A stretch of DNA of 64,000 nucleotides from Trypanosoma brucei (lineage: Eukaryota), in contig AE017150.2 of assembly GCA_000002445.1 (NCBI GenBank), positions 128,001 through 192,000 of the forward strand, read 5' to 3'. A program made the position numbers and the translations under genes. The first letter of the stretch is position 1, and every line of letters begins with the position of its first letter. The notes below the pieces were generated by a model. It did no database searches, was not told where the DNA came from, and was given only the letters and a program-made list of their open reading frames with translations. This document shows, in pieces, positions 1 to 50,580 of the stretch.

Positions 1-711
1 TTATCTGACATTAGCAATAGCGCACTTAATGATATTTTTCTCTCTCGATCCATTACGTCACTCAACCTAGCCTCCAGTTGGAAACTAACAGACATATCTC
101 ATATATCAAACCTTACGGCACTGGAGGAATTGAATCTGAGAAGATGTTACCCCATAACTTCAGGCTGGGAAGCACTAAGCGAATTACCACGACTTCGTGT
201 GCTCAACTTGGAATCCGCCAGTGTCACGACCCGTTACGATGGATATTATATCAGCAGATGCAAATCCCTCGTCACACTCAACCTTGAATCGTGTGATATG
301 ACCGATGCTTCATGTCTTGCTAATATCAAGACACTGGAGGAGTTGCATATAGGGAGATGCAAAGAGCTAAGGCGGGGGTTTAGTCCACTTTTCACTCTTC
401 CGCGGTTGCGCATTCTTAACTTGATTTGTTCTCTCATTAAAGATGAAGATCTCAGGGAAATTCAACCACCCCATACCATTGAGGAGCTCAATCTCTCTTA
501 TTGTGAAAATCTTAATGATATCACACCACTTGGGAGAATAAAATCAATTAAAAAATTGCATCTCCGTCAGAGCCATGATGCCAGAAGGCCTACAGAAGGA
601 TTCAGAAGTCTTTTGGAATTGCCATGTCTTTCTTGGGTTGACCTAAACAACGTGTGTGGCTGGTCCGATGTTTATGTTGAACTGAGAAAGAGGAGGGTAT
701 ATATCCGTTAA
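1..711 (+). CDS. Leucine-rich repeat protein (LRRP) paralog, C-terminal about 236 codons. The 5' part of the gene lies upstream of the window.
   Basis: Frame 1 is open from base 1 to the stop at 709-711. The translation (LSDISNSALNDIFLSRSITSLNLASSWKLTDISHISNLTALEELNL...) is about 93% identical to the C-terminus of the complete LRRP at 30854..35038 (nt 34328..35038). It has the cysteine-containing LRR consensus LxxLxLxxCxxITD. Confidence 0.8.
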   Translation, partial: LSDISNSALNDIFLSRSITSLNLASSWKLTDISHISNLTALEELNLRRCYPITSGWEALSELPRLRVLNLESASVTTRYDGYYISRCKSLVTLNLESCDMTDASCLANIKTLEELHIGRCKELRRGFSPLFTLPRLRILNLICSLIKDEDLREIQPPHTIEELNLSYCENLNDITPLGRIKSIKKLHLRQSHDARRPTEGFRSLLELPCLSWVDLNNVCGWSDVYVELRKRRVYIR

Positions 712-2840
712 TATGTGATCCATTGTTTCACTTTGTATAATTGGAACCACTTATTACTGAGAATACGTTATTAAATTTAACAGCCAGTTCGAGTGGTTCG
801 CTCACTGTAGGCACTATTACTCAAACAGATACCAGTAACAATTCACATGGATGATATTGTATGTTACACTATCTTAAATACGAGAAATACGAGGATTTCA
901 TTACAGTTATTTAAGTGCTTCGTATTTCACTAAGTCATACCAATCATATATTGTGAAGAATAAAGAACAGTTAGGAAAGTGTGTGTGTGTGTGTATGCAC
1001 AAGGCTTTTTTCTCAGTGGTAATTTGTATTTTAGTTGCAAGCGTAGTAATTATTATATTACGCTCATTTATACTACAGCCATATCAAATGAATATCTCAT
1101 TTCCTGTATGTTTTTCTGTCTTTACAGCCACATACTCTCACCCAAATGTCGAATGAAATATTATCGTTATTATTATTACTATTATTTCTATCGTTCTTAT
1201 TGTTATTACATGAAACACAACATTCACATTTAATTTTTACTCATAGCCACACCCGAAAAGTAAAAGCACTCAACATTCTACAGTACTGTATACCTGTCAA
1301 TGATATGAGGAAGTGAAGTTTATATACCATTAAAGTATAGTGAATATATTTCATTATTCTTATTATTATTTGTTTTACTGAAAGAAATGACAGAGTGACT
1401 TTACAATAAATTATATCAGAGCACCATCTTGACCACCAAGTTCTTACATGGGAGAGGATAAAACAACACATTACGTGTCTCGTGATTCTTTTTTACACTT
1501 GCCACTGGTATATCTATATTCTCAAATAGTGCGATTGAATATTCTCGTTTCATTAAAATATTATATTATAACTTGTTGTATTTGTTTGGTTTTTTAATAA
1601 CATAATTTATTTTACTACATTTCCTTTCAGAATTATTTGTGCCAAATATTTGTAAAGATGTCATACATTCCGAATACCCTTGCGCAGCAAAGGGTTGTGT
1701 ACCGCCTTAATTCATTAACATTTGTGCTACATGTGCATGGTAAAGTGTATTAAACATTTCACTGGTTTTGGGAAATATTATTTTCTTTCTTACAACATGA
1801 TGCCTCAGAAGGACTGAAGGCGAGACCAAATCCTTTCATTTTTTTTATTTTCCTTTTCTTACCGTATCCGTATATGTTTATGACTTTCCAGCAAACACTG
1901 CCGAGGTGAATTATGTATTCCTTCATATTTACTTTTTATTTGACAATAACAAGAAAAGGATTTCCTCCTCACACACTTAAATTAATTAGACACTGCTGTT
2001 AGCTGATAAGTTACAGAAAGCCGCACATTTAAGTTACACAAATCCACACCGATTCGAAATAGTAAAATATCAAATATTATGTATTTATTTGAGGAAAAAA
2101 AAGAGACGAAAAGCAGCGCTGCATCTGAAGCAAGATGCATGTGAAATCGAAGAACAACTGTCATTTGAATATCACATCCCCAAATTGTTTCGCTTACATT
2201 ATTAGCAGTAAATTCTTACGGAACTTGGGAAGTGAATGACTACTGAAATTAAAAGCATGAGGACGCACTGCGATGGCACATGAGAGAAACATTGGTGGGA
2301 TTTTTATATATTGGAAAGTGGAGTGGCTTTAAGGTGTTTTACATGATGTTTAGTTGGAGATTGAAATAATTCAGGAAATAGTGAAAGACTGTTATGATAC
2401 AGGAATTTTTTCGTTTACTAATTTCAAGCGCACTTCCACGACGCACCATTTTCGGTTTACATTGCAAGAAGTGGTATGATATTTGCAACCGCTTATTTCT
2501 TATTTATTTATTTTTTCGAGTTTATATAAGTGTGGTTTGGTGACGTGGAAAATTTTAGCATGTGGTTAATGTCTTTATGACAAGAAACTGCTCTGCTCGA
2601 GCTATGGTATTGGAAGGTTAAATATAAATTAGATGTTTTATGAGTTAATCAAATGCTGAATGCTTCAACTGACTCACTCTTCAAACCAAAACACTTTCTC
2701 AGCTTTTCCACTCTCAGCTAAAAATGTAGTTCAGTTTCCAAACAGCACACCACATCTCATTCACCATCGGGTAAAGAGATATTTTTTGTATGGTCAACAC
2801 GAAAGTGGAGAAATGCAGAAAGTAGAAATAAAATAAAGAA

Positions 2841-2857
2841 TATATATATATATATAT
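2841..2857. repeat. (TA)n microsatellite. The paralogous copy is at 37141..37161.
   Basis: tatatatatatatatat read directly. Confidence 0.9.
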
Positions 2858-5499
2858 CGAATTATGTTGGAACTGCAGGTATCATTCAACCTAAGAGAAA
2901 AAGCACCTTTCCTTCTGTTGTGAGCCGCAACCATACCGTGATGAAGTTACAAGTGGAAGGAGTTGACTCAAATCATTCATCACCTAATATCTGTAATGTG
3001 AATATTTTTGTTTAGAGATATTCGTATGTTAATAAGAGACCATTATGCAGAGGGAAGAACAACCGACGACTGCAACCTAAAACCCGTAATTTTCGGACTG
3101 TAATAAACTTTAATAGTTTCATTTAATTATGTAAAGATGGCATCAGCAGATTACACTTGTAAGCTGTTTGAAGTCAAAACAACGATACACGGAAGGGAAT
3201 GTGCAAGTGGTGATTTAAATTGCATGTTTATGAGAAATTTGTATTGTGAATCAACTGTTGAAATATGTTGCGCGATATTAACAGCAGATTTTTTTTCTTC
3301 ATATTATTCTTCTTTTCTTTTCTTTTTTTTGCTTGTTTGTCGAACAATCTGAGGTTTAGTTGATATATTCCTGAGTTTCATCACATGTGTTTCTGTTTAT
3401 ATAATACCAATCGTTACAAACTAAATATCTGCAGTAAGTATATTAAAAACATACGATTTATTGCTACCTCTTGCTTCATTTCTCTTTATTCAAACGGCAC
3501 TTTCTTTTAATCTTGTAAATAATGTTTTTATCGTTGTTTCATTTGTTTGCACACTTAATCCTCTGCGCACGCTGTTGTATTTATTTGCTTCTACACACTC
3601 ACAAAAAAAAAATATATATATATATATATCATTTTGAAACAAATCGCGGTTGTGACTGATGTTTGTTCTGTTTGCGTCGTATTATAAGGGGAATGTAAGT
3701 TTCGTTGATTAAACATTTCATGACGCATCATTACCGAGTTGTTTGTTATGAACTCATAATTAACCATGAGACAGGTTTTCACGAGTAACACTCCCTGCAT
3801 AAATGCAATGCACTGAAGGAATGTAATTTTATTTATTTATTTATTATTACTACCATTTTTATTACCATTATGATTGTCAGTATTAATATTCAGGTTTTCA
3901 TCCATCACTATTTTATTTTTGATATTTTTTTCCAACATCTGTTTCAAGCAACATGGTCGATTGGAAATAATGTAGACATCAATGGTTAGAGAAACTTTGA
4001 TTTGCCTTGACCGTGCAGATGCGCAAAGTTCAAAAGGTTTCAGAAAGGTGATGGGGGAAGTTTAACCATATTTTTTTATTACTGAATTATTTCTCTCAAA
4101 TGCTTTTTTTCTTTTGTATTGCACTTACATTCAAAACCAATTGGGCAGCGCTTTGAAGGCAGTGAAGTGGCGTATGGAAATATTTGCGTATTGGGTGGTT
4201 CTTTAAATTGTGATGATTACGTTCCTAACGGTGATGGAAAAAAATTAACATATGAATGTGTGTTCAATAATAATAATAATAATTAAATGCCAAGTTCCCT
4301 TACTTTCTGTATCAAATAGTGAGTCTGTTTTCTAATCTCATTTTTTTAAAATGCGTATCGAGGTTTAGGAGGCACAATGTTGCTTAAAACTCAACTCTCA
4401 CGAAAATGACACAAATTAAGGGAAGCTTCTATCGCAGCCACCATTTCCATGTGTGCAACAGTAATCGAGTCATTGTAACAATTTTTTTTTTGCGCGTGTG
4501 AAGTGTGAAATCCTCATGAGAACTCAAAATTTACTACAATAATACTCATTATGCAAGGTGCTTTGAGTGGGGAAGGCGGTGCAGACTCAAATATCCAAAA
4601 CAATTTATTTTCCCATATGGCAGAACGAACGGAAGCTGTAGTGAAACATACACTGCAAAGCGAGAAAAGTATATCTCCTGGTGCCGACACTCTCCAACGA
4701 TGTGAACACAAAACCCTTCATTTACGAACAGGAGGCTTCAGTTTGTTTATTTGTTTGTTTGTTTTTGAATCCATTCCTCACATCAGCGTCCAAAATTAAA
4801 TACAGGGAATTCAGAACCTTTATCATGACCATGATTGCTGTGTCTTGTAAGATGATACATATTTTATGATAGGAACTTACTGGGAACCAGCAGTCAACAA
4901 AAGAAATACGAAAGAACACAACAGTGATAAACATATATTACCTTGAAGCTACATGTGTACGTTTGCACGGAATTAGCTCAGTGGTATTTTCGAACTCAGA
5001 GAATGGCACGTGTGCTACAGTCAGATAAAATGAATAAAATACCAAATCTCGTGGATCAATTAATGTATTTGAAAATAGAATCTCATGCTGTATGGTCCTT
5101 AGAGGCATGAAAATAGATTCAATAACGCTAAGGTGTGACAGTGTTGAGGCATCTGTTAATCAACATGCGTTGAAAGTGGGGGAAATGTCAGTGAATATCT
5201 GAGGTAGCGCCAAACTATTTTTTTTTAATGGCCACAAAATGCTGCAGTGGAGCACTGTGGAAATATTTTCATTGGATAGAAAAATGTGTGAGGAAAGTTT
5301 ATTAAATTTGTTTGAGATTTATAACTGTTCTACCTGAGTAACTGTGTGCGTGCTTTAGTACAGGAATCCCTTTGCGATAAAGCTTCTATTTCCTTTACAA
5401 AGAAACACTAAGAAGCCGAATTAGTTATAAAAGCAAAGCAAATATTTTAATCAAGAACAATATTCAATGTTTTGCTTCAGGACAAAAAAACACTTATTC

Positions 5500-6240
5500 T
5501 GGGAAAAAAGCGTCTGAGGGGACGTGAAGCAAGAGTTGATAATGTTTTCAGTTTATATGGCTCCCTATGCAATGCAAAGTGAAGTCACATTATAATGGAC
5601 AACGAAACTCAACTGCTCGGGATGGAGTTTGTTGATGGAACGCGTAGTGGAAATATAATGTGGAAGGATGAAGAACTTAATGTTGTCCCTGAAATTGAGG
5701 AAGCCGTTAAGAAACCAGAGTGCAGGGAAGAAGTTGAAGCAATGGTTCTAACATCTCAAATGGGGTGATAATAGGCCAAGTTCACCAACGGAAGTAACAA
5801 AAACATATTCATCCGTAGAGAAGAGTTCCGCGTATGGAATGTTGTAAGGAGTGGAATTGAATTATGGCGTACACAACGTGCTTTACCGGGATGTCCTGAT
5901 TTTCCACGATCATACGCTGCCATTGTTAACCCTGGGATTGGAAAATCTCAGAATTTGGGTTCTTTTATCCTCTACAAGTTATTGCATTGTGATGCGGAAG
6001 AGTTGCCTATTGTTGCGTACTTCTGTGGCATGGCAGTGCTAATATTTGAAACCAACTGATGGACCCTTCGGCATGATCAAGAGAGATAGAGGATACGCAG
6101 CTTTCATGCTGGACGGAAGCATGCCAAGCATTAGTCATTTTTTCTGCTACGCGTTTAATGAAAGTGTGCATTTATCTGAGTTGTCTGTGAATTGGGGAAG
6201 CGCTCTGACCAGTTCGTTTAATGAGCAAACTCCCATGGCT
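5500..6240 (+). pseudogene. RHS (retrotransposon hot spot protein) N-terminal fragment, degenerate. Related to the RHS subfamily of the gene at 51639..53663. Has in-frame stops and a frameshift.
   Basis: Translation contains ...SHIIMDNETQLLGMEFVDGTRSGNIMWKDEELNVVPEIEEAVKKPE...MVLTSQMG** then FIRREEFRVWNVVRSGIELWRTQRALPGCPDFPRSYAAIVNPGIGKSQNLGSFILYKLLHCDAEELPIVAYFCGMAVLIFETN*. It is about 90% nt-identical to 53040..53250 (minus) of the intact RHS. Weaker RHS similarity (WGSALTSSFNEQ vs WGSILISSHNER) continues in another frame to about 6240. Confidence 0.7.
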
Positions 6241-9200
6241 GAGTGTTGAACACACCTCATTGCGATGTCGGAATCCGGTGTATCTGCGAGAGGCGGGGAG
6301 ATTAAATGTTCGCGCGCATCCCGTCTTAAGAATTGCGGCAGTCGGACAGTAACGGACTGCCCGGGGGAGAAGGAAAAGCGGCGAAACCGTCGGTTTTCGG
6401 GATGGTGGGAAGCATCGGTGTGATCCTCCACGTGTATAAACATGATTCTTTCGGTATCTTTAGAGCGCTCTCAATGTTGAGATCTGTGGTGTTAAGCAGA
6501 ATACAGGTCTGATCTCAGGTGAGTCGCAGCGGAATTCTGGTGAACTCTCCCGGCCGAAAAGGACCACCTAAGCAAATAACTGCGCGAGAAAAGGGTAAAT
6601 GCCACATTTTTCACGAAACGTTATCATCAGAGGCGGAGGCGGAATCCACAGTGATGACTCGGTGTTGGAAGATTGATATGGCACGGCCCCTTAAGGGTCC
6701 ATAAGCGTGGAGATTGGCAATGGATGGGATCGGTGTGTCGAAAGGCTCACAAAAAAACAAACGAGCGAGTACTAAATACGATAGGTTGATCATATTGTCA
6801 CACTGGAGCTGCTAATTGCATCTGTATCGGCGTTTTTACACAAACGAAAACAATAACAAAGGAGGAATCGGGCATACGGTGGCCGACGTAACGTTTCAAA
6901 ACAGCCGGACACGGGATCCAACTACAACATCTGTCAACGGAAGATGATGCGCTGTGCAATGGCCCACGCAGTATATGATGGAAATAACCGGTACGAGGAA
7001 TGACGCGAGAACGTCCCATGTGTAACTGGTTTTCACCTCAAGTCATGGTCATCTACAGGTTATGTGGAATAGATGAAAATAATGGGGAATTGTGAAAGAC
7101 AAGGTTTGACAAGAGTTTTTCGCTGTCATCGTCATTATTCTTCGGAAAGTCAGCGTATGGGTTGTTATTATGGCGGCGCGAACTAAACCAGTCCGACGAC
7201 GGTCACTGCATTTTCCTCCCTCGCGACTACTGATATTTTCTCCGCTTTGTCCTTTTCCAAACATTTTTAATTCGTGAAGGTCTCACCATCTTTCCACTTC
7301 TTCCGGTAAAACTCTCTGCACCTGCTTTTCTATCCACACTCGCTGCGGTTTTCCACTTCAGAGTGTGGCCAGTAGCCTTCTCAGCTCGTCTTGCCATTTG
7401 TTTGGCTGTGCTCGCGCCTTCCGGCATTCTGTTAAAAGCTGCGTCTTCCTTCTGTTCCCGATGTCAACGACTGCTGTCCTTTTTACCTTTGCAGAATTCG
7501 CACGCTCTCAAGAATTTCCTGACATTTTGCACCTCTTCCCAGTTCTCTCGCCCACATCGTGGTCATTCCTATACCTGCGCTACGATAGCGTGACGGTTTT
7601 TACCATAGGCCTCGTCACCGAATCTAGCGCCGGTGTTTCCCGCGCCTGTGAACTTTCGCCCATGGTGTCCACGGCAAGTCGTTTCGCAACGATCCTTATT
7701 CCGCTGCATTTACAAGTTGCCGTTGGCTCTCTTTCCCACTTGGCGTCATGACAACAATGGCTGCGTTCGGCTTTGGCATATGGCTTGTGTACAGCATCTC
7801 TTTTTTCGCTTATTTATTTCGTGTGTCGAGGGAATGCTGCCGTTGGCATTGACGTTCCTGAACTCAGCAAGCTCCTGCGATCACTCACTTTCGTGAGTTC
7901 CATCAGCCGCAACTGTTGTGCTCTCGAGTTTGGCGTCGTGCTTTCGCTCGCTTAGCGTCTAGTTAAATGCCATCGCCATGGGCGTCTCCTGAGCAACAAG
8001 ACGTTTCTTCATACAAGCAACATTAGACTTACATTGTTGTGTCGTATGTGACGGAGGAAGACGCAGCTACGGTTTCAGGGTGGTGAGCTCCGTCCGTTTG
8101 TTTTTATCATCGGTGACAAATTCGATTACGCAGTTGTTTTACCCTTCTGTAACTTTCCCTTCCCCAGTTTCAACTGTACAGGTTTTCCTGAAAGTCATTC
8201 CCGTCTGACAAGTTGGTTTGTTTTTTCCTCCCTTTACCGCTTCCAACAAACAGAACGCCGTCCGCGACACAACTACACCTCTTTTCCCCTTTCCTTCCCC
8301 ACCAAAGAACATCGTTGAAAGTTCGATACTTTCAAAGCAACTTTAGCGTAAGAAGTTTTTTGGCGGCGATGCCTGAGAATAGTCAAGTCTCACTTCCCTA
8401 TAATATAGCAATAGAAAAAATATAACATAATTATAAAGAGTGCCTTCGTACAAACGAGTTTTACTGAAATATAAGTCACATCGTAAACGAAATTTATTGA
8501 TACTTATCTAACCGCCTCTATTACTTACAAAGCGGAAGTGTCTGAAAGTGTCCTTAACCCGCTTCCCGCGCTCCCCTTTGCTTGCTATTTGGACACCCAT
8601 GGGGTTATCCTTCTGAGGTCACGTAAAACTCCATGAAGAATCAATCCTTCCATTTTGCAGCACTCTCCGTCTATGGCTACGGCCTCATGAATCATGGCAT
8701 TGGAATGTGTGTTGTAATTCCCACCATATTTTTTAAAAAAATAATATGCATCATACTTGTGTTGACTACTCATACATGTAAGAGACTCTTCAATCTCTTT
8801 CATAAGGCAAATATTCAAAAGTGGACCGCAGTTTCACAAGTAGCACTTGCAGTTAAGAACTTCTCTTCCGAATTGATAAATAATAAAACCACTCCCATCA
8901 CCCTTGCATGGAAGCATCCGTTACCATCATGACCACAGTTGCTACAACTCGCTACGTGCTCACTGGTGTTTTCTTTACTAAAATGCACATCCATTTTTGT
9001 GTCAGCTGTAACGCATATGTGTGTATGTGTGTGTCTGTGTGTGGTGGCACGGTTAAATCATTGGGTCGCATCGGGACCATATTGCATCATGACAAATATC
9101 ATGCTACCATTTAAAAAAAAAGTAGCAGTATTATTAAGGAGAAAGCTATTGTTTTCTCACTCCTGCTGCCACGTACATCATGCATGATACAACAGTTTCC

Positions 9201-39784: not shown

Positions 39785-40520
39785 AAAAGCGTCTGGGGGG
39801 ACGTGAAGCAAGAGTTGATAATGTTTTCAGTTTATATGGCTCCGTATGCAATGCAAAGTGAAGTCACATTATAATGGACAACGAAACTCAACTGCTGTGG
39901 AGGATGGTTGTTGATGGAACGCGTAGTGGCAATGTAATGTGGAAGGATGAAGAACTTAATGTTGTCCCTGAAATTGAGGAAGCTGTTGAGAAGAAACCAG
40001 AACGCAGGGAAGAAGTTGAAGCAATGGTTCTAACATCTCAAATGGGGTGATAATAAGCCAAGTTTGCCGGGGTGAGTAACAAAAACATATTCATCCATAG
40101 AGAAGAGCTCCGCGTATGGAATGTTGTAAGGAATGGAATTGAATTATGGCGTACACAGCGTGCTTTACCGGAATGTCTTTATTTTCCACGATCATACGCT
40201 GTCATTGTTAACCATGGGATTGGAAAATCTCAGAATTTGGGCTCTTTTATCCTCTACAAGTTATTGCATTGTGATGCGGAAGAGTTGCCTATTGTTGCGT
40301 ATTTCTGCGGCATGGCAGTGTTAATATTTGAAACCAACTGACGGACCCTTCGGCATAATCAAGGGAGATAGAAGGTACGCAGCTTTAATGCTGGACGGAA
40401 GCATGCCAAGCATTAGTCATTTTTTCTGCTACACGTTTAATGAAACTGTGCATTTATCTGAGTTGTCTATGAATTGGGAAGCGCTTCGACCAGGTCGTTT
40501 AATGAGCAAACTCCCATGGC
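39785..40520 (+). pseudogene. RHS N-terminal fragment, duplicate-copy-B counterpart of 5500..6240.
   Basis: ORF 40072..40341 translates FIHREELRVWNVVRNGIELWRTQRALPECLYFPRSYAVIVNHGIGKSQNLGSFILYKLLHCDAEELPIVAYFCGMAVLIFETN. Upstream there are the same in-frame double stops after TSQMG. Confidence 0.7.
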
Positions 40521-43500
40521 AGAGTGTTGAACACACCTCATTGCGATGTCTGAATCCGGTGCATCTTCGAGAGGGAGGAGATTAAATGTTCGCGCGCATC
40601 CCGTCTTAAGGATTTCAGCAGTCGGACAGTAACGGACTGCCCGGGGGAGAAGGAAAAGCGGCGAAACAGTCGGTTTTCGGGATGGTGGGAAGCATCGGTG
40701 TGATCCTCCACGTGTGCAAACATGATTCTTTCGGTATCTTTAGAGCGCTCTCAATGTTGAGATCGGTGGTGTTAAGCAGAATACAGGTCTGATCTCAGGT
40801 GAGTCGCGGCGGAATTCCGGGGAACTCTCCCGGCCGAAAAGGATAACCTAAGCAAATAACTGCGCGAGAAAAGAGTAACTGCCACATTTTTCACGAAACG
40901 TTATCATCAGAGTCGGAGGCGGATTCCAGTGATGACCGGATGTCGGAAGATTGATATAGCATGACCCCTTAAGGGTCCATAAGCGTGGAGATTGGCAAAG
41001 GATGGGATTGATGCGTTGAAAGGTTCGCAGAAAAAACAAACAAGCAAGTACGAAATACGATCGGTTGTTCCAATTGTCACACTGGAGCTGCTAATTGCAT
41101 CTGTATCGGCGTTTTTACACAAACGAAAACAATAACAAAGGAGGAATCGGGCATACGGTGGCCGACGTAACGTTTCAAAACAGCCGGGCACGGAATCCAA
41201 CTACAACATCTGTCAACGGAAGATGATGTGCTGTGCAATGGCCCTCGCAGTACATGATGGAAATAACCGGTGCGAGGAATGACGCGAGAACGTCCCATGT
41301 GTAATTGGTTTTCACCTCAAGTCATGGTCGTCTACAGGTTATGTGGAATAGATGAAAATAATAGGGAATTGTGAAAAAAAAGAGTTTTAAAAGAGTTTTT
41401 CGCCGTCATCGTCATCATTCTTCGGAAAGTCAGTATATGGGTTGTTATTATGGCGGTGCGAACTAGACCAGTCCGACGACGGCCACTGCATTTTCTCCCG
41501 GCGACTACTGATATTTTCTCCGCTTTGTCCTTTTCCAAACACTTTTAACTCCTTAAGGTTTCACCATCTTTTCACTTCTTCAGCTGTGCTCGCGCCTTCC
41601 TTCTGTTCCCGATGTCAACGACTCCTGTCCTTTTTACCTTTGCAGAATTCGCACGCTCTCAAGAATTTCCTTACATTTTGCACCTCTTCCCAGTTCCCTC
41701 ACCCGAATCGTGGTCATTCCTATGTCTCCGCCACGGTAGCGTGACGGTTTTTATCATACGCCCCGTCACCGAATCTAGCGCCGGTGTTTCCCGCGCCTGT
41801 GAACTTTCGCCCATGGTGTCCACGGCAAGTCGTTTCTCAACGATCCTTATTTCGCTGCATTTACAAGTTGCCGTTGGCTCTCTTTCCCGCTTGGCGTCAT
41901 GACAACAATGGCTGCGTTCGGCTTTGGCATATGGCTTGTGTACAGCATCTCTTGTTTCGCTTATTTATTTCGTGTGTCGAGGGAATGCTGCCGTTGGCAT
42001 TGACGTTCCTGAACTCAGCAAACTCCTGCCATCACTCACTTTCGTGAGTTCCATCAGCCGTCACAGTTGTGCTCTCGAGCTTGGTATCGTGCTTTCGGTT
42101 GCTTAGCGTCTAGTTAAATGCCACGGCCATGGGCGTCTCCTGAGCAGCAACGCCTTTCTTCATACCTGCAGCATTAGACTTACATTGTTGTGTCGTATGT
42201 GACGGAGGAAGACGCAGCTATGGTTTCAGGGTGGTGAACTCCGTTAGTTTGTTTTTATCATCGGTGACAAATTCGATTACGCAGTTGTTTTACTCTTCTG
42301 TAACTTTCCCTTCCCCAGTTTCAACTGTACATGTTTTCCTCAAAGTCATTCCCATCTGGCAAGTTGGTTTGTTTTTTCCTCCCTTTACAACTTCCAACAA
42401 ACAGAACGGCGTCCGCGACACAACTACTTCCCTTTTCCCCCTTACCTTCCCCACCGAAAAATATCGTTGAAAGTTCAATACTTTCAATGCAACTTTAGCG
42501 TAAGAAGTTTTTTGGCGGCGATGCCTGAGAATAGTCAAGTCTCACTTCCCTATAATATAGTAATAGAAAAAATATATAACATAATTATAAAAAGTGCTTT
42601 CGTGCAAACGAGTTTTACTGAAATATAACTCATATCGTAAACGAAATTTATTGATACGTACATAACCGCCTCTATTACTTACGAAGCGGAAGTGTCTGAA
42701 AACGTCTTTAACCCGCCTCCCGCGCTCCCCTTTGCTTGCTCTTTGGACACCCGCGGGTTTATCTTTCTGAGGTCACGTAACTCCATGAAGAATTAATCTT
42801 CCCATCTCGCAGCACACTCCATCTACGGCTAAAGCCTCATGAATCATGTCACTGAAATGTGTGTTGCAATTCCCACTATTTTTTTAAAAATAATATGCAT
42901 CATACTTGTGTTGACTACGCATACATGTACGAGACTCTTCAATCTCTTTCATAAGGCAAATATTCAAAAGCGGGCTCTCGTTTCACAAGTAGCACTTGCA
43001 GTTAAGAACTTCCTTCCCGAATTGAGGAATTATAAAACCACTCCCATCACCCTTGCATGGAAGCATCCGTTACCATCATGGCCACAGTTGCTACAACTCG
43101 CTACTTGCTCACTGGTTTTTTCTTTACTAAAATGCACATCCATTTTTGTGTAAGCTGTAACGCATATGTGTGTGTGTGTGTGTCTGTGTGTGGTAACACG
43201 GTTAAATTATTGGGTCGCATCCGGACCGTATTGCATCATGACAAATATGATGTTACCATTTAAAAAATAAGTAGCAATAGTAGTAGGGAGAAAGCTATTG
43301 TTTTTTCTCACTCCTGCTGCCGCGTACATCATGCGTGATACAACAGTTTTCATTTATTCTATAGTAGATTTTTTCACATAGCAAGGGATACTCGGAATTG
43401 TTGTATAACTTTCGTTGTCCCAGCAATACTGTCTGCTTTTCATGGTTAAACTAAAACTCCAATGAAATCACATTGTTGTGTCATCTTTTGTGAGTCACCA

Positions 43501-46500
43501 ATGATGGTTGTGCCCCACATTTCTTCATGCTGGTAACTATTTTGTTTCCACGACATTTAACCACGTCATGTGCCTCACACTAATAAATATGTTGCAGATC
43601 CATGTTTGAGTCCTCAATCTTTCAGGGGTCGCCTGCTGCAGCCTCACGACATCGGCGTCTTCTGAAAAGACCCTTGTGATGGTGTGTGAAACTCCAGGAT
43701 TCTCCTTTATTAACTGATGGGGAGTCGATTCAAATTCACTAATTCCTCATTTTTGCTAACGTATCGGAACCCCACCCGAATATTCTCAGGCAACTTCACT
43801 TGGGAGGGAAATGACTTTAGATCAAACACTGCCACCGACTGGTCATGGAGAGTAATTATCAACTGGGAAAAGTGACACAATGGGACATATGCCTCATAAT
43901 CATCCCTGCTCTTTTTAGCCTTTGGTCATGCAATAAATCAACACCTTCTTCCAATTCTGTTTTTCCTCCATCACAAAGAATGGCGCACAACTCATCCTGT
44001 CATATGTCTCTCTGAAACTGGGCCAATGATACGCGATTGCTTCATTATTTGGGACTTCTTTTTTTACAATGTGCAATTCAGATTCCTTTTTTGATACTTT
44101 CTCTTTCCACATCATCTGTGCTATTCTTAATGCTCCAACCCTCATCAAATCGCTTACTCGCTGCTTGCATCATCCTCTGTCAAATCCACGGAAGGAAAAT
44201 CATTCCCACATTTATTTCCTATTGGAGAGGTGAAGTATTTTCTTTTCCTCCTCTTCCCGTGAGGTCACCTTTGTTTTCCCCTTGTGAGTGTCAAGGAATG
44301 CTGTGCAATCGATAATTTGGGAAGATATTCCCCGTTATAAGTCCCGGCTTCCCTCACACTGGGGCCGCACATTCCTTCCAATTATATCTTACATCAAAAA
44401 CATTAAAAGAACCGACTTGCTTACGGAAGCTGTCACACATCTGAGATACCACACTGTGCCTCGTGGAAGTTCCATTGTGTAGATGTGCTTTCCAAATTCT
44501 ATTAATAATATGTTGTCAATGTCGTGTTCAATTGCAACTACTGCCGCTGCGCGTGTCAGCAGTGCTCTTCTCTTTATGGAATGTTCTATCATTACGTATG
44601 GTCTTTTCAGTATGGTGTCATTTTCCCCTTTGTGGTAATGGCTATGAACTTCTTCCCCTTTCCTCCCGAGGTTCCTCCCTATGACTTTTTTCACACTGGC
44701 AATGCTCTTTTCCCAGTTGATAATTACGCATCGTGTGAGTATGTGGGTATCGCTTTTGAATTTCTTTAGAAGGTTCCCTCCCAAAAAAAAATCCACTGTT
44801 GAGGCTTTCTTTTCGTGTCAGTGTGGCACAACATTTTTCTCTTTTTTTGGGAGCTGTGTAATTTCTTTTTGCCATCGCATGGCTGGATGCAATTCATTCC
44901 ATTGATATTGCAACTGGATACCACTCTGGACGGAACTTCCTGCAAGATATTATCGAATCCCCATTACAACATGTGTTGTGTTTGTTTGATGGGTTTACCT
45001 GTTACCGTACTGTAAAGACGGACCCAAAAACAACATCCGCGTCGGTTTGTCCAATAGAGATGATGGAAGAGTTCTCCTGTACTGAAATGGCAATGGTCTC
45101 TGCGAGTCGTAAACTTACAACAACAAATAAAAGTGCAGTTGCATCCTATGCTGGAATGCGGTAATGATTTTCCGCCAATGCATAAAAACACCGCATGATG
45201 AATTCCCTGTTGCTCACATGTTTTAGTCCTCAGCTACATTCACTTTGCTATTCTATTGGCTCCTGAAACCAATGTCATGATGTACGGACAGCTTTTTGTG
45301 GGAACTGCAATAAAAATAATAATCATAATTATAATAACTCCTTTCACCAATGAGTTTACTATTGGTTGTAAAAGTGCTCTTGGTGCCACTCCATTTTTCT
45401 TTTCTTGAGTCCCCAGCTGCTGAGGGGCTGTTGTATTTTTTTTTAAAGAGTGACGCACCGTTTTATTCCCCACCCCTTTCAGGTGACTTCCTCCTGCACA
45501 GTTTTTACTTTCCCATCGTAGAATGTTTTTCAAGGTGTTTCCTTTGTGAAGCTTTGGTTATGCTATAATTAAAGACCACTCAACTCCCTCCTTCCGGGAA
45601 CTGTTGTTGCATTTATTTCCCTTTAGTTGCTGCAAATTTGTTTATTTGACAAGTTGTAGTGCGATACTTCACTTGACCATATGTGTAACATCGTGTCTCG
45701 TTGCTTTATAAAAATTCAAAAAGAACACATCAGGTGATATTCTTCTGCTCTTACTTCGTCCATTCACATCTCTTCCCGCCAGTTCGGAAACTCCCACTCA
45801 AACTCACCACTCTGTGAAGATTTGTAGTTTCCGTTAGCGATGGACGTACTGAAGTGGACATGTTTGGCACTTCAAAACTAAGTTTTTTAAACTTACACCT
45901 TCCTTCTTGCATACAGCTTCAGTGCGAGAGTAAAGGAATAGTTGAGTATCATGAGAAAACATAAGCCCAAAACATTCTCAACTCAAGCTTTCAATAAAAG
46001 CAAACACATTAAGATGGTTTAGTGAACACATGCAGTATAATCCCTAGCAAAGGTATTATTCACACCCAATAAACAACTCAAACAAATAACACCAGCATAC
46101 ATATCGCAGACACATAAGTTGCACCTTCACAAACAAATGAAAGCTGCTGTGGCTCATCATGTGTAAAATATTATGAGCACAAAAACATAAATGTCCTTGA
46201 CCTTCCATAAATGTATAACACAATATTTCTTGCATTGTCATCGGGAAAATATTTTTTTTATATTGTTATATATATTCATCCAATAGTCAAGAGTGAGCTC
46301 TGGCCTTGTAGAACTGTAAATGCGTGCATGTTCTGTTATTATTGTTTCCCATTGCAAAATGAAGATACCTGCAGATGTGGAGAAACGTCTCCATAAATGC
46401 TTATGATGCACCAAATAATTCTCTCGTAAAGAAAGGAGAGAACAAATGCTCAGCATACGTGTCGCTATTTGTATCTTTAAATTAAGGTTCTCTTGAATGG

Positions 46501-46884
46501 AGTAAAGAAAAAACAAAGAAAAGGCAAGAAGTATATGATGTAATTGGTGAGGCATAATGAAATGACCCAACAAGAGGGAAAGGAAGTTACATGCCTTCAC
46601 TACAGTCATACAAATAAAGCCAGACCCTTCACACTCGTTTTACAATGTTCTGTCGTATCGCTCTGCATAAACAAATAATACTAATAGAAAAGGGAAATGT
46701 AAGAAGAAAGTAAAAAAGTATCAAATAGTTCGAGGATTATCGACACTCAGCTACGTGAAGTGATACGTATCGCAAATGTGTGTTTGAAATGCTCACCATC
46801 CTAATGAACTTACTCGTATGTTACTTAACCCTGGGAAATATTTCTCTGTGCGCTCAAGTTACCTGACAACTCTCCTTCCGCACC

Positions 46885-49800
46885 CTATGCATTGTTACCA
46901 CCTCTATTGTTAACTCCGTTGTTATTGTTACCTTTTACTTGCAATTCAACGTATAGTGCAGTAATGTGGTTACTAAGAGAGACCGCGAACTGACGCACTT
47001 CCTGTTCACAAAACCTTTCCTCAACCTTATTATTTTGTCCTCCGTCTTCGATTGTCCCCTCACAACATTGTGGCTTTGTAATTTTTTCGCTGTCAACCCT
47101 TTGAACATAGATTATTTCCCATACCATCCCGCGTGAAAAATTGTCCCAGCGTCTAAAGTAACTTTGCAAACACCTTTTCATCTTAAATAACCCACCGGTG
47201 CTGCAAGGATGACTACCGGAAATTGTGTACTGCAGTCCCACAAAAGTCTTCGGATTCTCAACAAAAAAGAACGCATCAACAACCGGGAAACTCCTTGATT
47301 GCGGCTTGTACAATTTCATATATTGAATTTCAGCTCCAGCTACAATTGGAACATCCTCAGGAACCACAATCAAAGGATTCGTGAGTCTTGGACCTTGCAG
47401 CACCTGCAGCACACTTTGTTGGATTTGATCCCCAGCAAATGAAAGGCCCTGTAACTCCCTTGCCAACTCAGTTAGTGTATTCTCATGTGACAATGCTTCA
47501 ATGCCACTCTTCTCAAACAGATGACCAACAATAGCGCAGTTAGACAGCAGAGCAGATATTGCAGCATATTTATTCAGTAACCAAGGCCTCAGAAAGTCTA
47601 AAATAACTTGCCCCGTGTAAGATGAAAGCGGTGTGCAGAGATACGAATCACACAGAAGATTCCCTTTCTTCACTCGAACAACCCTCACTAACCTGTGTGA
47701 TGCTTTGCGTGTTTGCCAGGTAGCTGCGTTTTGGAAAATTTTTGCGTAGCTTTCCTTCTTTACATCACTCATTTCGTTAATGGCTTCCTCGATTAGATCA
47801 CACTGCCTGGTGAACGACGCCGAATCAACAATGTGACGAAGCAGTGGGCCAACGATAGGAATGCGATCTTGAATTTCTTGCCATTCACTTTCAATTTTCT
47901 CCTTCGCATCTGAAGGATTCCAACCGTAAGCAGGAGCAATTTTCCCCCACCTCGATATGTGTATGACTTCCAAATCCTTCAATGTATCACAGTTAATGTA
48001 AAAATGTAGGGCTTTGTTTTGCTTGGACCATCCATGGAATTGTCTAACGTTTGGAGAGCTCAAGGCAATACCAGCGAAATCACCAGGTGGTTTCGTCGGA
48101 GCAGGATGATTCTTGTCCACGTCAAATATAACGTATCCCTTAATATTCTCTGCGCCACATGAATCTCTGACTATTTGGCCAATAAGCGTTGAGGCATCAT
48201 CATAATTACTGTAAAACGTAACATATCCTGCTCGATCGCCTTTGGGTTTACGAAACACATACGCCTTACCACTCACAACGTACATGATAATCTAAAGCTG
48301 ACTCGATTCATAATGCAGTAGTTTGTATAACAGTATTATTTTTTTTGGAATTTTCTTCGTGCCTTCGTGAGAGTTTCTCCCAACTGGCGGGGCCATCAGC
48401 CATCACCGTAGAGCCCTGAGATGCTATCGGTCTGGCGACTGTGGCAGAGTCTCCCTTTTTCATTCATCCTAACACACCCTCTATAATTTTTGTTGTATTT
48501 CCGCATATGAACGGAATACAGCAGATGGGGCGAGAAGCCCCCCTCACCCCGGACTCTCCAAAAGATGTCAATTAGCAATCCTTTTGTTTTGATTTTTGTT
48601 ATTCGTTTATTATTCTCTCCCCCTCTTTCTGTTTCTGTTGCTTGTTGATTGCATACCCCCTCTGTCTCTAAGGGTGTCTGGACTATTCCTGCGTCCTGTG
48701 CTTTTCCTGCTAGCTCCACACTCGGCAATAAGGGGGGAAGTTGCAGAAGGGAGAGTGGGTTGTATGACTGTTACCTTAGGTGAGGACTTCACCTGCGGCC
48801 GGCTCCGTTCAACCGCAATGAGAAATTGCGCCAGCATTTAAGAGAAACATACATGCTGCACACACTCACCTTCTACCGCAAACCTGACACGTAACTCCTT
48901 CAAACCTGGACAGCTCATCAAGTGCAGCGACGTTTCTTCGCAGTCGCCGCGTTGGCTGGTAACAGCGCGCTCTACCTTCATACCGTTCATCTTCTTTTGA
49001 TGGAGGGTGAGGCCAGTTTTGCTAGCACACTGCCTTCCGCATGTCGGGCACACCAACATGGATGTGTTTTTATGCGGGGAATCAGTGGCACACAATTTTG
49101 TGCTTTTGCTGCATTTAAGCTCGACTCCCTCACCTTTGTGGAAAGCCTTACAGTGTCGGATGAGGGAGTCCCTGCAACTGAGCACTTTTTGGCACACACC
49201 ACACTGCACCCCGCCCTTCCCCGGGACGTCAACGTTTTCCTCACGGGCACGCTTACGAGGGAATTGCACCAACACCACGGTACCGTCCTCCGTCACTATG
49301 CTTTTATGTTTGAATTTCTTGTGTAGTGACAGGGAAGAACGTGTACCGAAGCTCGCCTCGCACAGGTCACATTGAAACGGCAGCTTCCGTGTATCCTGAG
49401 AGGCTGGCGCTGCTGGGGCTTTACCATCTCCTTGCACTGAGTCCTCGTTCTCTCGCCCCCTTTTCACGCGGCAACTGCCGCTGCCTATGCCATGTATTGT
49501 TCTAAGGTGGTGTAGTAGTCTGCCTGGCACTGCGAATTTGGAGGCACAGATGGTACAATGAAGCACCTGCGGTCTCATCGGGACTCGTGTGCTCGATGGT
49601 AGGGGAACGATCGCCACCACTGGAGGGGGCTCCGGGGGGATATCCACTGCAGGTGTTGCATCGCCGTATTTGATCCTCCGGAGGGCATCAGCTCGCACAA
49701 AGCCATGTTTGTTTACCATATGCGTTACAGCACTCGAGCGGCATTGGTATGTGGCATCACATTCCGTACATTTGGTCGGTTCGGAGGTTCTCTGAACAGT

Positions 49801-50580
49801 GCGTGTCGCAACAGTTGGGACTGTTTGTATTGTTGGTCCTATCGCTGCATGTTGCGGGTTACACCATCGGCACTGTGGAGGCACACTCGGGTTGATCTTC
49901 CGCACCCTCTTGAATTGCATACTGCGGAATACTGAAAGAGTTATATGGCCAACCCTTCTGCGAGGTGAGCACAGCAATCTCTAAATTACCGTGACGAGGC
50001 AGTGGGTCGCACAAGTCAAAAGGCGTGTGACTGACATTCACCTCCTCTTCTGTCCACAACTCGGGTTTGCCGTCACAATTACCCACTACCTTCATGCCAA
50101 GAGGTAAATCATTGTGACCCGACTCCACATAACCCCATGTCGCATTGTATATGGAATCATATACTCCTTTCAGTTCTGCACCACCAGCTGTTTGGTCAGC
50201 TCGTTCCCTTGCCTCTTTGGCAGTATCCAATGCCGCATCCAGCATTGCTCTCGCCCTGGGACCAACAAATTCCCTTATTTGCGCTTTTGCCATCTCCTCC
50301 CATTGCTGCATGTCTTAAATTCTATTACGAGGCAGATCAATAACTGCCCTTGGTAATTGAAACTCATCAAGCCGCTGTATCCTGTATTTCTTCAAGAACA
50401 TTAGCATTAATATATTTTCCCGGATTCTGAACAAACAAAAACATGGCCACATTCTCTGTTTTATACGTGTTTGAGAAGTATTGATTCAAAATTTCATGCA
50501 GTTTCATTTCATCCAAGCTCGCATAATCTTCCAGCAGCACATCCTCAATAGAACTGTTAATTGATCAAGTTGGCCCTTTT
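46885..50580 (-). pseudogene. RHS pseudogene B, paralog of A. The C-terminal part (46885..48323) and a degenerate N-terminal part (about 49930..50580, start codon lost, internal stops) are separated by an ingi 3' fragment.
   Basis: The C-terminal ORF 46885..48285 is about 85% identical at the protein level to the A C-terminal part. The N-terminal ORF 49859..50311 (MQQWEEMAKAQIREFVGP...YNATWGYVESGH...NLEIAVLTSQKGWPY) matches the A N-terminal part. Upstream of 50311 similarity continues, but with stops. Confidence 0.8.
48336..49930 (-). mobile_element. 5'-truncated ingi retroelement remnant. It comprises the RIME-identical 3' half with poly(A) (48336..48584) and about 1.35 kb of ingi-internal 3' sequence (48585..about 49930). 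The internal part includes a C2H2 zinc-finger ORF (48838..49977).
   Basis: TSD TGTATAACAGTA at 48324..48335, at the same hot-spot nucleotide as in A. The next about 249 bp are about 97% identical to the poly(A)-proximal half of the RIMEs. Similarity to RIME stops exactly at the RIME midpoint (48584 vs 14430), which is where ingi's 4.7-kb internal segment is inserted. The ORF shows at least four C-x2-C-x12-H-x4/5-H fingers (CTECDATYQCRSSAVTHMVNKH, CTICASKFAVPGRLLHHLRTIH, CDLCEASFGTRSSLSLHKKFKH, CGVCQKVLSCRDSLIRHCKAFH), as expected for the C-terminal domain of the ingi/L1Tc-type ORF. Assignment of the internal part to ingi is by context, not by remembered sequence. Confidence 0.6.

What the first reader, a model, noticed from the sequence alone, without database searches (positions are those of the whole stretch)
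1..50320. About 16-kb segmental duplication whose two copies have different retroelement fillings at the identical hot-spot nucleotide
Copies A (1..16.3 kb) and B (34.3..50.3 kb) are collinear at about 92-95% identity through the LRRP 3' end, intergenic DNA, RHS fragment, unknown block and RHS pseudogene. Yet A has RIME x3 and B has an ingi 3' fragment at the same site with the same TSD. There are two explanations. An ancestral single ingi or RIME insertion may have predated the duplication and then diverged by ingi-to-RIME conversion, amplification or deletion. Or the hot spot was hit independently after duplication. In T. brucei a large fraction of RHS copies are pseudogenes with ingi or RIME at precisely this position, so both are plausible. 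The shared TSD is therefore not by itself evidence of common descent. The locus is a good test case.
Basis: partly seen in the sequence, partly recalled or inferred. Interest (0 to 1): 0.5.

Follow-up and report, generated by a model that had tools for sequence, protein, structure and literature searches.

The report
Duplicated RHS pseudogene block, Trypanosoma brucei
Two diverged copies of a block of at least 14 kb in a Trypanosoma brucei gene cluster each end in a gene broken by a mobile element at the family's known insertion hot spot; the elements probably arrived separately after the duplication, and this is an ordinary, already described kind of locus.

Summary
The duplication is real, but shorter on the right than claimed. 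A 1-14428 matches B 34328-48585 at 90-96%. Copy A is cut by the window start. The homology stops inside the retroelement.

Copy A is an RHS1 gene on the minus strand. It is split by three tandem RIMEs separated by four identical 12-bp repeats (TGTATAACAGTA). Removing the RIMEs restores an intact 832-aa ORF.

Copy B has only one copy of that 12-mer. Its element is a roughly 1.56-kb 3' piece of ingi. That piece is fused, away from the hot spot, to a decayed RHS2-type N-terminal fragment. The "5' halves" of A and B are therefore not duplicates (77% nt, different subfamilies).

The 12-mer is simply RHS1 coding sequence. An uninterrupted T. b. gambiense RHS1 gene has TTCTGTTATACA at that site.

RIME1 and the B ingi differ at 9 sites plus a 2-bp indel in 239 columns. 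Only 2 of the differences are private. The rest also occur in elements at other loci or in the neighbouring RIMEs, so the two elements come from different sources and look younger than the block, which is 5-7% diverged.

Independent hits after the duplication, followed by a deletion in B, fit best. The locus is a poor test case because the adjoining RHS1 coding flank is a gene-conversion mosaic (16% diverged). The source is T. b. brucei TREU927, and this architecture is published.

The parts
1..14166 (.). Copy A of the duplicated block, cut on the left by the window start. Order of contents: LRRP 3' end, intergenic DNA, RHS fragment, RHS-upstream-like block, RHS1 3' half.
   Evidence: Self-BLAST. 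MAFFT windows show 82-97% identity. Divergence by partition: non-coding 5.3-7.4%, LRRP coding sequence 9.6%, RHS1 coding sequence 16.1%.
34328..48323 (.). Copy B of the duplicated block.
1..705 (+). 3' end of a leucine-rich repeat protein gene (LRRP_A); the rest lies outside the window.
   Evidence: blastx gives 86.8% aa identity to LRRP_B residues 1159-1393. Pfam LRR hits.
30854..35038 (+). Complete LRRP gene (LRRP_B). Its last ~700 bp belong to copy B.
   Evidence: Exact match to XP_951492.1 of T. b. brucei TREU927.
5553..6050 (+). RHS N-terminal fragment on the strand opposite the other RHS genes. The copy B counterpart is at 39832-40332.
   Evidence: blastx gives 69% aa identity to P0002 residues 50-216. 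Self-BLAST to 53497-53038 at 80%.
9485..11462 (-). Part of the 'unknown block': a module found directly upstream of an RHS gene elsewhere. The copy B counterpart is at 43634-45613.
   Evidence: 89.8% identical to L003:7390-9377 (T. b. equiperdum), which lies just upstream of an RHS3-type gene. No Pfam hits on the two longest ORF pieces tested.
12725..14166 (-). RHS1 3' half of copy A, an intact reading frame.
   Evidence: Pfam RHSP positions 18-311. 96.9% aa identity to RHS1 Q8T9M3. Joins the 5' half into an 832-aa ORF when the RIMEs are removed.
14167..14178 (-). 12-bp target-site repeat TGTATAACAGTA (TACTGTTATACA on the gene strand). Further copies at 14683-14694, 15203-15214 and 15717-15728.
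   Evidence: Exact-match search finds four copies in A and one in B. Sequence read directly.
14179..14682 (-). RIME1, next to the RHS1 3' half, with its poly(A) tract against the repeat.
   Evidence: Same sequence type as RIME3.
14695..15202 (-). RIME2, a different sequence type from RIME1 and RIME3. It matches a T. b. gambiense chromosome 11 RIME at 98%.
15215..15716 (-). RIME3, next to the RHS1 5' half.
15729..16773 (-). RHS1-type 5' half of copy A (348 codons). It is not part of the A/B duplication.
   Evidence: Pfam DUF7578, RHS_N and RHSP positions 1-22. 80-83% aa identity to RHS1-type proteins. 97% nt identity to the T. b. gambiense chromosome 11 RHS1 pseudogene.
46885..48323 (-). RHS1 3' half of copy B, with one in-frame stop 13 codons after the hot spot.
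   Evidence: Pfam RHSP. 86.5% aa identity to RHS1 Q8T9M2 but only 75% to A's 3' half.
48324..48335 (-). The only copy of the 12-mer in B, on the 3' side of the element.
48336..49895 (-). 5'-truncated ingi: about 1.56 kb of its 3' end with poly(A). The right-hand limit is good to about +/-10 bp.
   Evidence: 96.8% identical over 1388 bp to an ingi-like element of T. b. gambiense, L001:20012-21396. C2H2 zinc-finger ORF. RHS2 homology ends at 49898.
49898..50660 (-). Decayed RHS2-type N-terminal fragment with frameshifts and stops. It ends at residue 253 of the RHS2 protein, about 80 codons short of the hot spot.
   Evidence: blastx gives 82-84% aa identity to P0018, whose 90% cluster contains 'RHS2a' AAL14353.1, against 54-60% to most RHS1-type proteins (70% to the P0012 pseudogene product). 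Pfam RHS_N positions 1-85 of 127. Six-frame view.

Best explanation
The window is part of an RHS/LRRP gene cluster of Trypanosoma brucei brucei TREU927. The contig is 1.19 Mb long; from my own knowledge that is chromosome 2.

Proposed history:
1. A block of at least 14.4 kb (LRRP, intergenic DNA, RHS fragment, RHS-upstream-like module, RHS1 gene) was duplicated long ago. Its non-coding DNA is now 5-7% diverged.
2. Afterwards the RHS1 gene of each copy was hit separately at the family's insertion hot spot, just after the P-loop codons. The hits were made by ingi-driven target-primed reverse transcription, which duplicates the 12 bp TACTGTTATACA.
3. In A, three RIMEs of two sequence types accumulated by repeated use of the regenerated target. 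Each new element would go in on the 5' side, where the upstream recognition sequence survives.
4. In B, an ingi went in. A later illegitimate deletion joined the interior of the ingi to residue 253 of an RHS2 gene lying upstream. This removed the ingi 5' part, the second repeat copy, the RHS1 5' half and whatever lay between.
5. Meanwhile, gene conversion with other RHS1 copies overwrote patches of both 3' halves.

Shown here: the anatomy, the subfamily assignments, the different source types of the elements, their low private divergence, and the mosaic flank.

Inferred: the order of events, repeated insertion as the origin of the array, and a single deletion as the origin of B's junction.
For: 1. 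RIME1 and the B ingi differ at 9 substitutions plus a 2-bp indel in 239 shared columns, and only 2 substitutions are private. At 4 substitutions and the indel, B's state recurs in a T. b. gambiense chromosome 11 ingi or RIME while RIME1's state recurs in RIME2 and/or another T. b. gambiense RIME. If the element had been present since the duplication, about 12.6 private differences would be expected. P(<=2)=3e-4. If the three states shared only with RIME3 are also counted as local, P(<=5)=0.014.
2. Each RIME has only 2-3 private substitutions in about 500 bp, against about 13 expected per lineage if it were as old as the block (P<1e-3).
3. Removing the RIMEs and one repeat copy restores an uninterrupted 832-aa RHS1 ORF, so A carries no other disabling damage.
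4. RIME2 is of a different type from RIME1 and RIME3 at 5 sites. The array is therefore not an amplification of one copy, and a simple unequal crossover would not place like elements at the two ends.
5. The hot spot accepts elements repeatedly and always yields the same 12-mer: T. b. gambiense chromosome 11 has an RHS1 pseudogene with the same repeat, and an uninterrupted T. b. gambiense RHS1 gene has TTCTGTTATACA there.
6. The literature reports 78 of 118 TREU927 RHS genes as pseudogenes, some carrying one or more elements between two RHS halves, and describes duplication and insertion as seemingly independent processes (PMC6393297; PMC7563717).
7. B's right flank is an RHS gene (XP_951494.1) followed by an RHS2 fragment. 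The protein numbering suggests the same gene order elsewhere on the contig (XP_951477, then XP_951478). This fits an RHS2 gene truncated in place by a deletion.
Against: - The panel of outside elements is tiny: two RIMEs and one ingi from T. b. gambiense. 'Private' and 'shared' could shift with more copies.
- Low private divergence could also come from homogenisation of elements by gene conversion, which is clearly active next door in the RHS1 coding sequence.
- The B ingi shares a linked pair of states (CAGTTGGGAGAAA) with RIME1 and RIME3, against all three T. b. gambiense elements and RIME2. That could be a trace of common descent of the extreme 3' end.
- The raw divergence of the element (3.8-4.2%) is not significantly below the flank.
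- The homology ends exactly at the element in A versus B, and again in A versus T. b. gambiense chromosome 11. Recombination at elements would also predict this.
- The original right-hand limit of the duplication cannot be recovered.
Confidence: 0.5

Rival explanations
1. Recombination at the element set the boundary. An element already sat in the RHS1 hot spot when the block was copied. The copy was made, or later re-joined, by ectopic homologous recombination or break-induced copying that started in ingi/RIME homology. On this view the duplication ends in the element by construction, and the RHS 5' and 3' halves on either side have separate histories.
For: - High-identity homology switches at the element in every comparison available. 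A versus B: left side 90-96%, right side unrelated subfamilies.
- A versus the T. b. gambiense chromosome 11 pseudogene: 5' half, RIME and 3 kb upstream are 93-97% identical, but the 3' half is only 79-84%.
- A second T. b. gambiense RIME (L004:5895-6397) has an RHS2-type hot spot on its 3' side, non-RHS sequence on its 5' side and no repeat.
- A review states that about half of the related L1Tc/NARTc elements of T. cruzi lack a TSD (PMC5814959).
- Bringaud 2002, as summarised in PMC7563717, proposed recombination between RHS variants as a source of pseudogenes.
- The CAGTTGGGAGAAA variant shared by the B ingi and RIME1/RIME3 could mark a shared extreme 3' end.
Against: - The present elements look several-fold younger than the block. 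The original element would have to have been replaced or homogenised.
- B's junction lies inside ingi and at RHS2 residue 253, not at homologous element sequence. An illegitimate event is needed in any case.
- RHS proteins are mosaics throughout their length, not only at the hot spot. Histories switch in many places.
Confidence: 0.27
2. One reading: one ingi or RIME insertion predates the duplication. The two copies then diverged in place, by conversion of ingi to RIME, amplification to three RIMEs in A, and truncation in B.
For: - Same nucleotide position, same 12-mer and similar poly(A) length in both copies.
- Homology between A and B runs without a break through the repeat, the poly(A) and about 250 bp of the element at 95.8%.
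- Raw divergence is compatible with the flank.
Against: - The position and the 12-mer are fixed by the hot spot and recur at unrelated loci.
- Any two ingi/RIME 3' halves in the panel are about 93-99% alike, even across subspecies and chromosomes, so the identity level carries no information.
- An in-place internal deletion of an ingi would leave ingi-type states beside the internal junction. RIME1 has RIME-type states at 4 such sites and lacks the 2-bp insertion.
- Seven of the 9 substitutions are not private.
- The array contains two RIME types.
Confidence: 0.15
3. Artefact: the two copies are alleles or mis-assembled haplotigs, not paralogs.
For: None found. Copy A does touch the window edge.
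Against: - Both copies lie on one window, 18 kb apart, with unique genes between them: an adenylate cyclase pseudogene and LRRP_B.
- The window's proteins map to one 1,193,948-bp TREU927 contig.
- Non-coding divergence of 5-7% with many indels is, from general knowledge, far above allelic differences in this species.
- The two copies have different right-hand neighbours.
Confidence: 0.02

Closest known systems
RHS (retrotransposon hot spot) pseudogenes of Trypanosoma brucei. Described by Bringaud et al. 2002, Eukaryot Cell 1:137 (not readable here); summarised in PMC7563717 and PMC6393297.
   Same: - The RHS_N and RHSP domains are split by RIME and/or ingi in sense orientation, at one fixed position just after the P-loop codons.
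- One or more elements lie between the two halves.
- There is a 12-bp duplication.
- The locus sits in RHS clusters together with LRRP genes.
   Different: Nothing essential. Copy B is a decayed variant: a 5'-truncated ingi, one repeat copy only, and a 5' fragment from another subfamily (RHS2) that ends about 80 codons before the hot spot.
ingi/RIME pair of non-LTR retroposons: an autonomous LINE and its internally deleted non-autonomous derivative (PMC4035085, PMC5814959).
   Same: - The units are about 500 bp with poly(A).
- Their 3' half is shared with the 3' end of a longer element that carries a C2H2 zinc-finger ORF.
- Insertion is site-specific with a target duplication.
   Different: The ingi here is only a 1.56-kb 3' remnant with no reverse transcriptase or endonuclease region. 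The tandem RIME trimer mixes two sequence types.
Tandem arrays of site-specific non-LTR elements sharing one target duplication, for example tandem L1Tc copies in T. cruzi flanked by the same 9-mer (PMC5814959).
   Same: Head-to-tail elements are separated by the same short target repeat.
   Different: Different element and host species. The mechanism here (repeated insertion versus recombination) was not shown.
Mosaic RHS genes made by ectopic recombination and gene conversion, documented for T. cruzi RHS in PMC7563717.
   Same: Divergence between paralogs is patchy: 1 to 23 mismatches per 60 bp in the RHS1 3' half. Each half is closer to some other family member than to its duplicate partner.
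   Different: Shown here for one T. brucei pair only. No formal recombination test was run.

Membership tests
RHS gene or pseudogene | Pfam RHS_N (PF20445) and RHSP P-loop (PF07999) domains | tested here: met
   A 5' half: RHS_N E=1.6e-55 and RHSP positions 1-22. A 3' half: RHSP positions 18-311, E=1.5e-104. B 3' half: RHSP E=9e-108. B 5' fragment: RHS_N positions 1-85 only.
RHS pseudogene with an element at the hot spot | Element inserted at the conserved position just downstream of the GIGKS P-loop codons, in the same orientation as the gene | tested here: met
   The gene strand reads ...GGTAAATCG...GGATCCC|TACTGTTATACA|element in A. The 3' junction is identical in A and B, and the same site is used on T. 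b. gambiense chromosome 11. B's 5' junction is not at the hot spot.
RHS pseudogene with an element at the hot spot | 12-bp target-site duplication on both sides of the element(s) | tested here: inconclusive
   Met in A, which has four identical copies. Not met in B, which has one copy at 48324 only. B fits only as a rearranged derivative.
RHS1 subfamily (defined by the C-terminal region) | C-terminal half closest to named RHS1 proteins | tested here: met
   A 3' half is 96.9% identical to 'RHS1' Q8T9M3. B 3' half is 86.5% identical to 'RHS1' Q8T9M2. Both are about 30% identical to other subfamilies.
RIME | About 500-bp unit ending in poly(A), whose 3' half equals the 3' end of ingi | tested here: met
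   Units are 502-508 bp. The 3' ~250 bp is 94-95% identical to the B ingi and 93-94% to a T. b. gambiense ingi-like element. Each unit is 96-98% identical to RIMEs in T. b. gambiense RHS pseudogenes.
RIME | 5' half equals the 5' end of ingi (the Pr77 region) | not testable with these tools
   No full-length ingi could be retrieved. The protein search with the ingi ORF found nothing. No Rfam family matched.
ingi | Large ORF with endonuclease, reverse transcriptase, RNase H and C-terminal zinc-finger regions | tested here: inconclusive
   Only the C-terminal about 350 codons remain, with a C2H2 zinc-finger hit. The homologous T. b. gambiense gene carries faint RNase_H and zf-C2H2 marks. The reverse transcriptase and endonuclease parts are absent from the fragment.
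Segmental (dispersed) duplication | Long collinear paralogous blocks on one molecule, separated by unique sequence | tested here: met
   14.4 kb at 90-96% identity, 34.3 kb apart, with different right-hand flanks.

The most novel reading that the evidence does not exclude
Elements parked in the RHS hot spot may act as portable recombination joints. On this reading, RHS 5' halves and 3' halves, each with several kb of flanking DNA, are exchanged as modules between clusters and chromosomes. In the three comparisons possible here (A versus B, A versus T. b. gambiense chromosome 11, and a one-sided T. b. gambiense RIME), the history of the DNA changes at the element. In addition, two window segments that are 39.5 kb apart (15.2-19.7 kb and 59.2-64 kb) are only 1.6 kb apart on T. 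b. gambiense chromosome 11.
Probability: 0.3. Interest if true: 0.35.

Novelty: already known. Interest (0 to 1): 0.15.

Why it matters
It matters little beyond this locus. RHS pseudogenes interrupted by RIME or ingi at one fixed nucleotide, and duplicated, reshuffled RHS/LRRP clusters, have been described for T. brucei since 2002. This window comes from the reference strain's genome.

The useful results are practical:
- The shared 12-mer and the roughly 95% identity of the elements say nothing about common descent.
- Sorting element differences into private and lineage-shared ones is more informative than comparing raw divergence.
- The RHS coding flanks cannot serve as a clock, because gene conversion has overwritten them.

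A genome-wide version of the private-versus-shared analysis could measure how often hot-spot elements mark recombination breakpoints.

Tried and rejected
- Tandem Repeats Finder reported nothing, because the ~516-520-bp period (502-508-bp RIME plus 12-bp repeat) exceeds its 500-bp limit. Self-BLAST and direct reading were used instead.
- Looking up TREU927 proteins in the contig index failed three times. The sequence to the left of the window, and with it the left limit of the duplication, could not be fetched.
- The Bringaud 2002 and 2009 papers are not held. No paper on chromosome II was found. Secondary sources were used.
- A protein search with the 379-aa ingi ORF found nothing. No full-length ingi was obtained, so B's junction is placed only from the end of RHS2 homology (49898) and from ingi homology known up to 49717.
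- The LRRP search did not return the copy A LRRP. The best C-terminal match was 90.6%. The T. b. gambiense LRRP loci (L005, L006) share only the gene and about 1 kb downstream, so they are not orthologs of the block.
- Rfam found nothing in the RIME array.
- The idea that RHS identity switches only at the hot spot was rejected. The restored A protein compared with other RHS1 proteins is patchy along its whole length.
- A simple unequal crossover as the origin of the RIME trimer was considered and judged unlikely. It predicts unlike end elements with a hybrid in the middle, whereas the two end elements here are alike and the middle one differs.
- No other RIME or ingi pieces exist in the window.


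Full report
**Source.** Two ORFs of the window are exact matches to annotated proteins of Trypanosoma brucei brucei TREU927. The RHS gene at 51639-53663 (minus strand) is XP_951494.1. The LRRP gene at 30854-35038 (plus strand) is XP_951492.1. Both are recorded on a contig of 1,193,948 bp. From my own knowledge of the genome, that size and the accession series correspond to chromosome 2; no tool confirmed this.

**The observation.** Self-BLAST gives two long collinear matches: 1-7303 with 34328-41581 at 93.0%, and 7438-14428 with 41588-48585 at 90.5%.
- A MAFFT alignment cut into 500-column windows shows 95-97% identity in the AT-rich intergenic part. It shows 82-89% in the last 1.7 kb before the element.
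- Copy A starts at window base 1, so its left limit is unknown.
- The blocks contain an LRRP 3' end, an RHS N-terminal fragment on the plus strand, a long stretch without recognisable genes, and an RHS 3' half on the minus strand.
- Part of the stretch without genes (9485-11462 and 43634-45613) is about 90% identical to the DNA just upstream of an RHS gene in T. b. equiperdum. It is a recurrent RHS-upstream module.

**Anatomy at the hot spot, copy A.** The RHS genes run on the minus strand. Read on the gene strand, copy A is arranged as follows:
- RHS 5' half (16773 down to 15729);
- TACTGTTATACA;
- RIME3;
- the same 12-mer;
- RIME2;
- the 12-mer;
- RIME1 with poly(A);
- the 12-mer;
- RHS 3' half (14166 down to 12725).

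Deleting the three RIMEs and one copy of the 12-mer gives an uninterrupted 832-codon ORF. Its best match is a protein named RHS1, at 90% identity.

**Anatomy at the hot spot, copy B.** Copy B has the same 3' junction: RHS1 3' half, the 12-mer at 48324, then poly(A). Its element shares only about 250 bp with the RIMEs.
- The element continues as a C2H2 zinc-finger ORF. It is 96.8% identical over 1388 bp to an ingi-like element on T. b. gambiense chromosome 11.
- At about 49895 it abuts an RHS N-terminal fragment. That fragment stops at residue 253 of its closest relative, about 80 codons short of the hot spot. It carries frameshifts and stops.
- There is no second copy of the 12-mer in B.

**The two 5' parts are not duplicates.**
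- A's 5' half is 80-83% identical at protein level to RHS1-type proteins and 54.5% to P0018.
- B's fragment is 82-84% identical to P0018 and 54-60% to most RHS1-type proteins. The 90% cluster of P0018 contains a protein named RHS2a.
- At DNA level the two parts match over only 360 bp at 77%. A's own segment matches a third RHS in the window better, at 84%.
- The duplicated block therefore ends inside the element, at about 14.4 kb, not at 16.3 kb.

**The 12-mer carries no information.** It encodes Leu-Leu-Tyr just after the P-loop.
- An uninterrupted RHS1 gene of T. b. gambiense has TTCTGTTATACA at that place.
- A RIME in an RHS1 pseudogene on T. b. gambiense chromosome 11 is flanked by TACTGTTATACA and TTCTGTTATACA.

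**Flank divergence**:

| Partition | A versus B divergence |
|---|---|
| Non-coding DNA, five partitions | 5.3-7.4% |
| LRRP coding end | 9.6% |
| RHS1 3' half (coding) | 16.1% |

- In the RHS1 3' half, dS is 0.29 and dN/dS is 0.53.
- Its divergence is patchy. 60-bp windows with 1-2 mismatches lie next to windows with 20-23.
- Each 3' half is closer to some other RHS1 protein (96.9% and 86.5%) than to its partner (75%).
- The restored A protein is also a patchwork when compared with other RHS1 proteins.
- This is the pattern of gene conversion among family members, as documented for T. cruzi RHS (PMC7563717).
- The DNA next to the elements therefore does not share the age of the rest of the block and cannot calibrate the elements.

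**Element divergence.** Over 239 shared columns of the 3' half, RIME1 and the B ingi differ at 9 substitutions and one 2-bp indel, about 3.8%. That is not significantly below 5.3% (P=0.20). All ingi/RIME 3' halves compared are about 93-99% alike, even across subspecies and chromosomes.

Adding two RIMEs and one ingi from T. b. gambiense as outside references changes the picture:
- Only two of the nine substitutions are private, one in each element.
- At four substitutions and the indel, B's state recurs in the T. b. gambiense ingi and/or RIME. RIME1's state at these sites recurs in RIME2 and/or the other T. b. gambiense RIME.
- Three further states are shared by RIME1 and RIME3 only.
- If the element had sat in place since the duplication, about 12.6 mostly private differences would be expected. 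P(<=2)=3e-4, or P(<=5)=0.014 on the cautious count.
- Each RIME has only 2-3 private substitutions in about 500 bp, against about 13 expected per lineage (P<1e-3).
- RIME1 lacks the ingi-type states next to the internal junction. It was not made in place by an internal deletion of the ingi.
- RIME2 differs from RIME1 and RIME3 at five sites and matches a T. b. gambiense RIME at 98%. The trimer therefore contains two source types.

**Best reading (confidence 0.5).** The block was duplicated first. The two RHS1 genes were then hit separately at the hot spot.
- Repeated insertion explains the array in A. After an insertion, the 5' copy of the target keeps the upstream sequence that the ingi endonuclease is thought to recognise. 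This is my inference from target-primed reverse transcription and from the site specificity reported for ingi/RIME and L1Tc (PMC5814959).
- In B, a later deletion joined the inside of the ingi to an upstream RHS2 gene.
- The gene order 'RHS 674 aa, then RHS2' seems to occur elsewhere on the same contig, judging by protein numbering. This fits an RHS2 gene truncated where it stood.

**Main rival (0.27).** Recombination at elements may have set the boundary. Homology switches at the element in A versus B.
- It switches again in A versus T. b. gambiense chromosome 11. There the 5' half, the RIME and 3 kb upstream are 93-97% identical to A, while the 3' half is 79-84%.
- A second T. b. gambiense RIME has an RHS2-type hot spot on one side only.
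- The B ingi shares the linked variant CAGTTGGGAGAAA with RIME1 and RIME3. This could be a remnant of a common 3' end.
- Against this rival, the present elements look much younger than the block, and B's junction is not within element homology.

**Other rivals.** A single ancestral insertion that diverged in place is the weakest biological option (0.15). An assembly artefact is effectively excluded (0.02).

**Limits.**
- The outside panel is three elements.
- The TREU927 chromosome beyond the window could not be fetched.
- No full-length ingi was available.
- No true orthologs of A or B in other subspecies were recovered.

**Verdict.** This is a correct but over-extended observation of a known architecture in a reference genome. 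RHS pseudogenes with RIME and/or ingi at one fixed position, often with several elements, are published, as are duplication and shuffling in RHS clusters (Bringaud 2002, as summarised in PMC7563717). Florini 2019 reports 78 pseudogenes among 118 RHS genes (PMC6393297). Interest is low and the finding is already known.

Noticed in passing
window 26452-28658 (+), possibly from about 25.8 kb: A frameshifted receptor-type adenylate cyclase (GRESAG4-like) pseudogene lies between the two copies. Separate ORF pieces hit the two periplasmic-binding-like adenylate cyclase domains and the cyclase catalytic domain.
   Followed up: partly
window 60716-61651 (-): Decayed fragments of an RNA polymerase second-largest-subunit (Rpb2) gene, domains 3, 4 and 6, sit inside the RHS cluster. 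The same fragments are annotated at the homologous place on T. b. gambiense chromosome 11 (L001:3350-4092).
   Followed up: partly
window 15203-19664 and 59238-64000; L001:735-11553: These two window segments are 39.5 kb apart here. On T. b. gambiense chromosome 11 they are only about 1.6 kb apart, at 93-97% and 94% identity. All of copy B, LRRP_B, the cyclase pseudogene and three RHS genes lie between them in TREU927. Whether the T. b. gambiense locus is an ortholog or a paralog is not known.
   Followed up: partly
window 12731-14164 versus 46891-48321: Sharply bounded patches of very high divergence (up to 23 mismatches per 60 bp) alternate with nearly identical stretches in the RHS1 3' halves. 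Synonymous divergence is 4-5 times that of the adjacent non-coding DNA. This looks like gene conversion from other RHS1 copies. The LRRP coding end is also more diverged (9.6%) than the non-coding DNA.
   Followed up: partly
L004:5895-6397 (T. b. gambiense chromosome 11): This RIME has an RHS2-type hot-spot sequence (TTCTGCTCCAAAGGTTGCTGCATTACGAT) on its 3' side, unrelated DNA on its 5' side and no target duplication. In its 3' half it carries several 'ingi-type' states.
   Followed up: partly
window 57100-58844 (-): An RHS pseudogene with frameshifts. Its successive pieces are closest to different family members: P0020-type at the 5' end, then RHS3-type P0033 and P0017. It has no retroelement.
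   Followed up: no
window 7304-7437: A stretch of about 130 bp is present in copy A and absent from copy B. It has no other match in the window.
   Followed up: no
window 5553-6050 (+) and 39832-40332 (+): The RHS fragment inside each copy lies on the strand opposite all other RHS genes of the window. It is related to the N-terminal part of the 674-aa RHS at 51639-53663 (69% aa, 80% nt). Convergent RHS pieces of this kind are proposed sources of small interfering RNAs, according to PMC7563717.
   Followed up: no
window about 28.0-28.5 kb: A (TG)n/(CA)n dinucleotide run lies inside the cyclase pseudogene. It shows up as a repeated His-Thr / Cys-Val translation.
   Followed up: no
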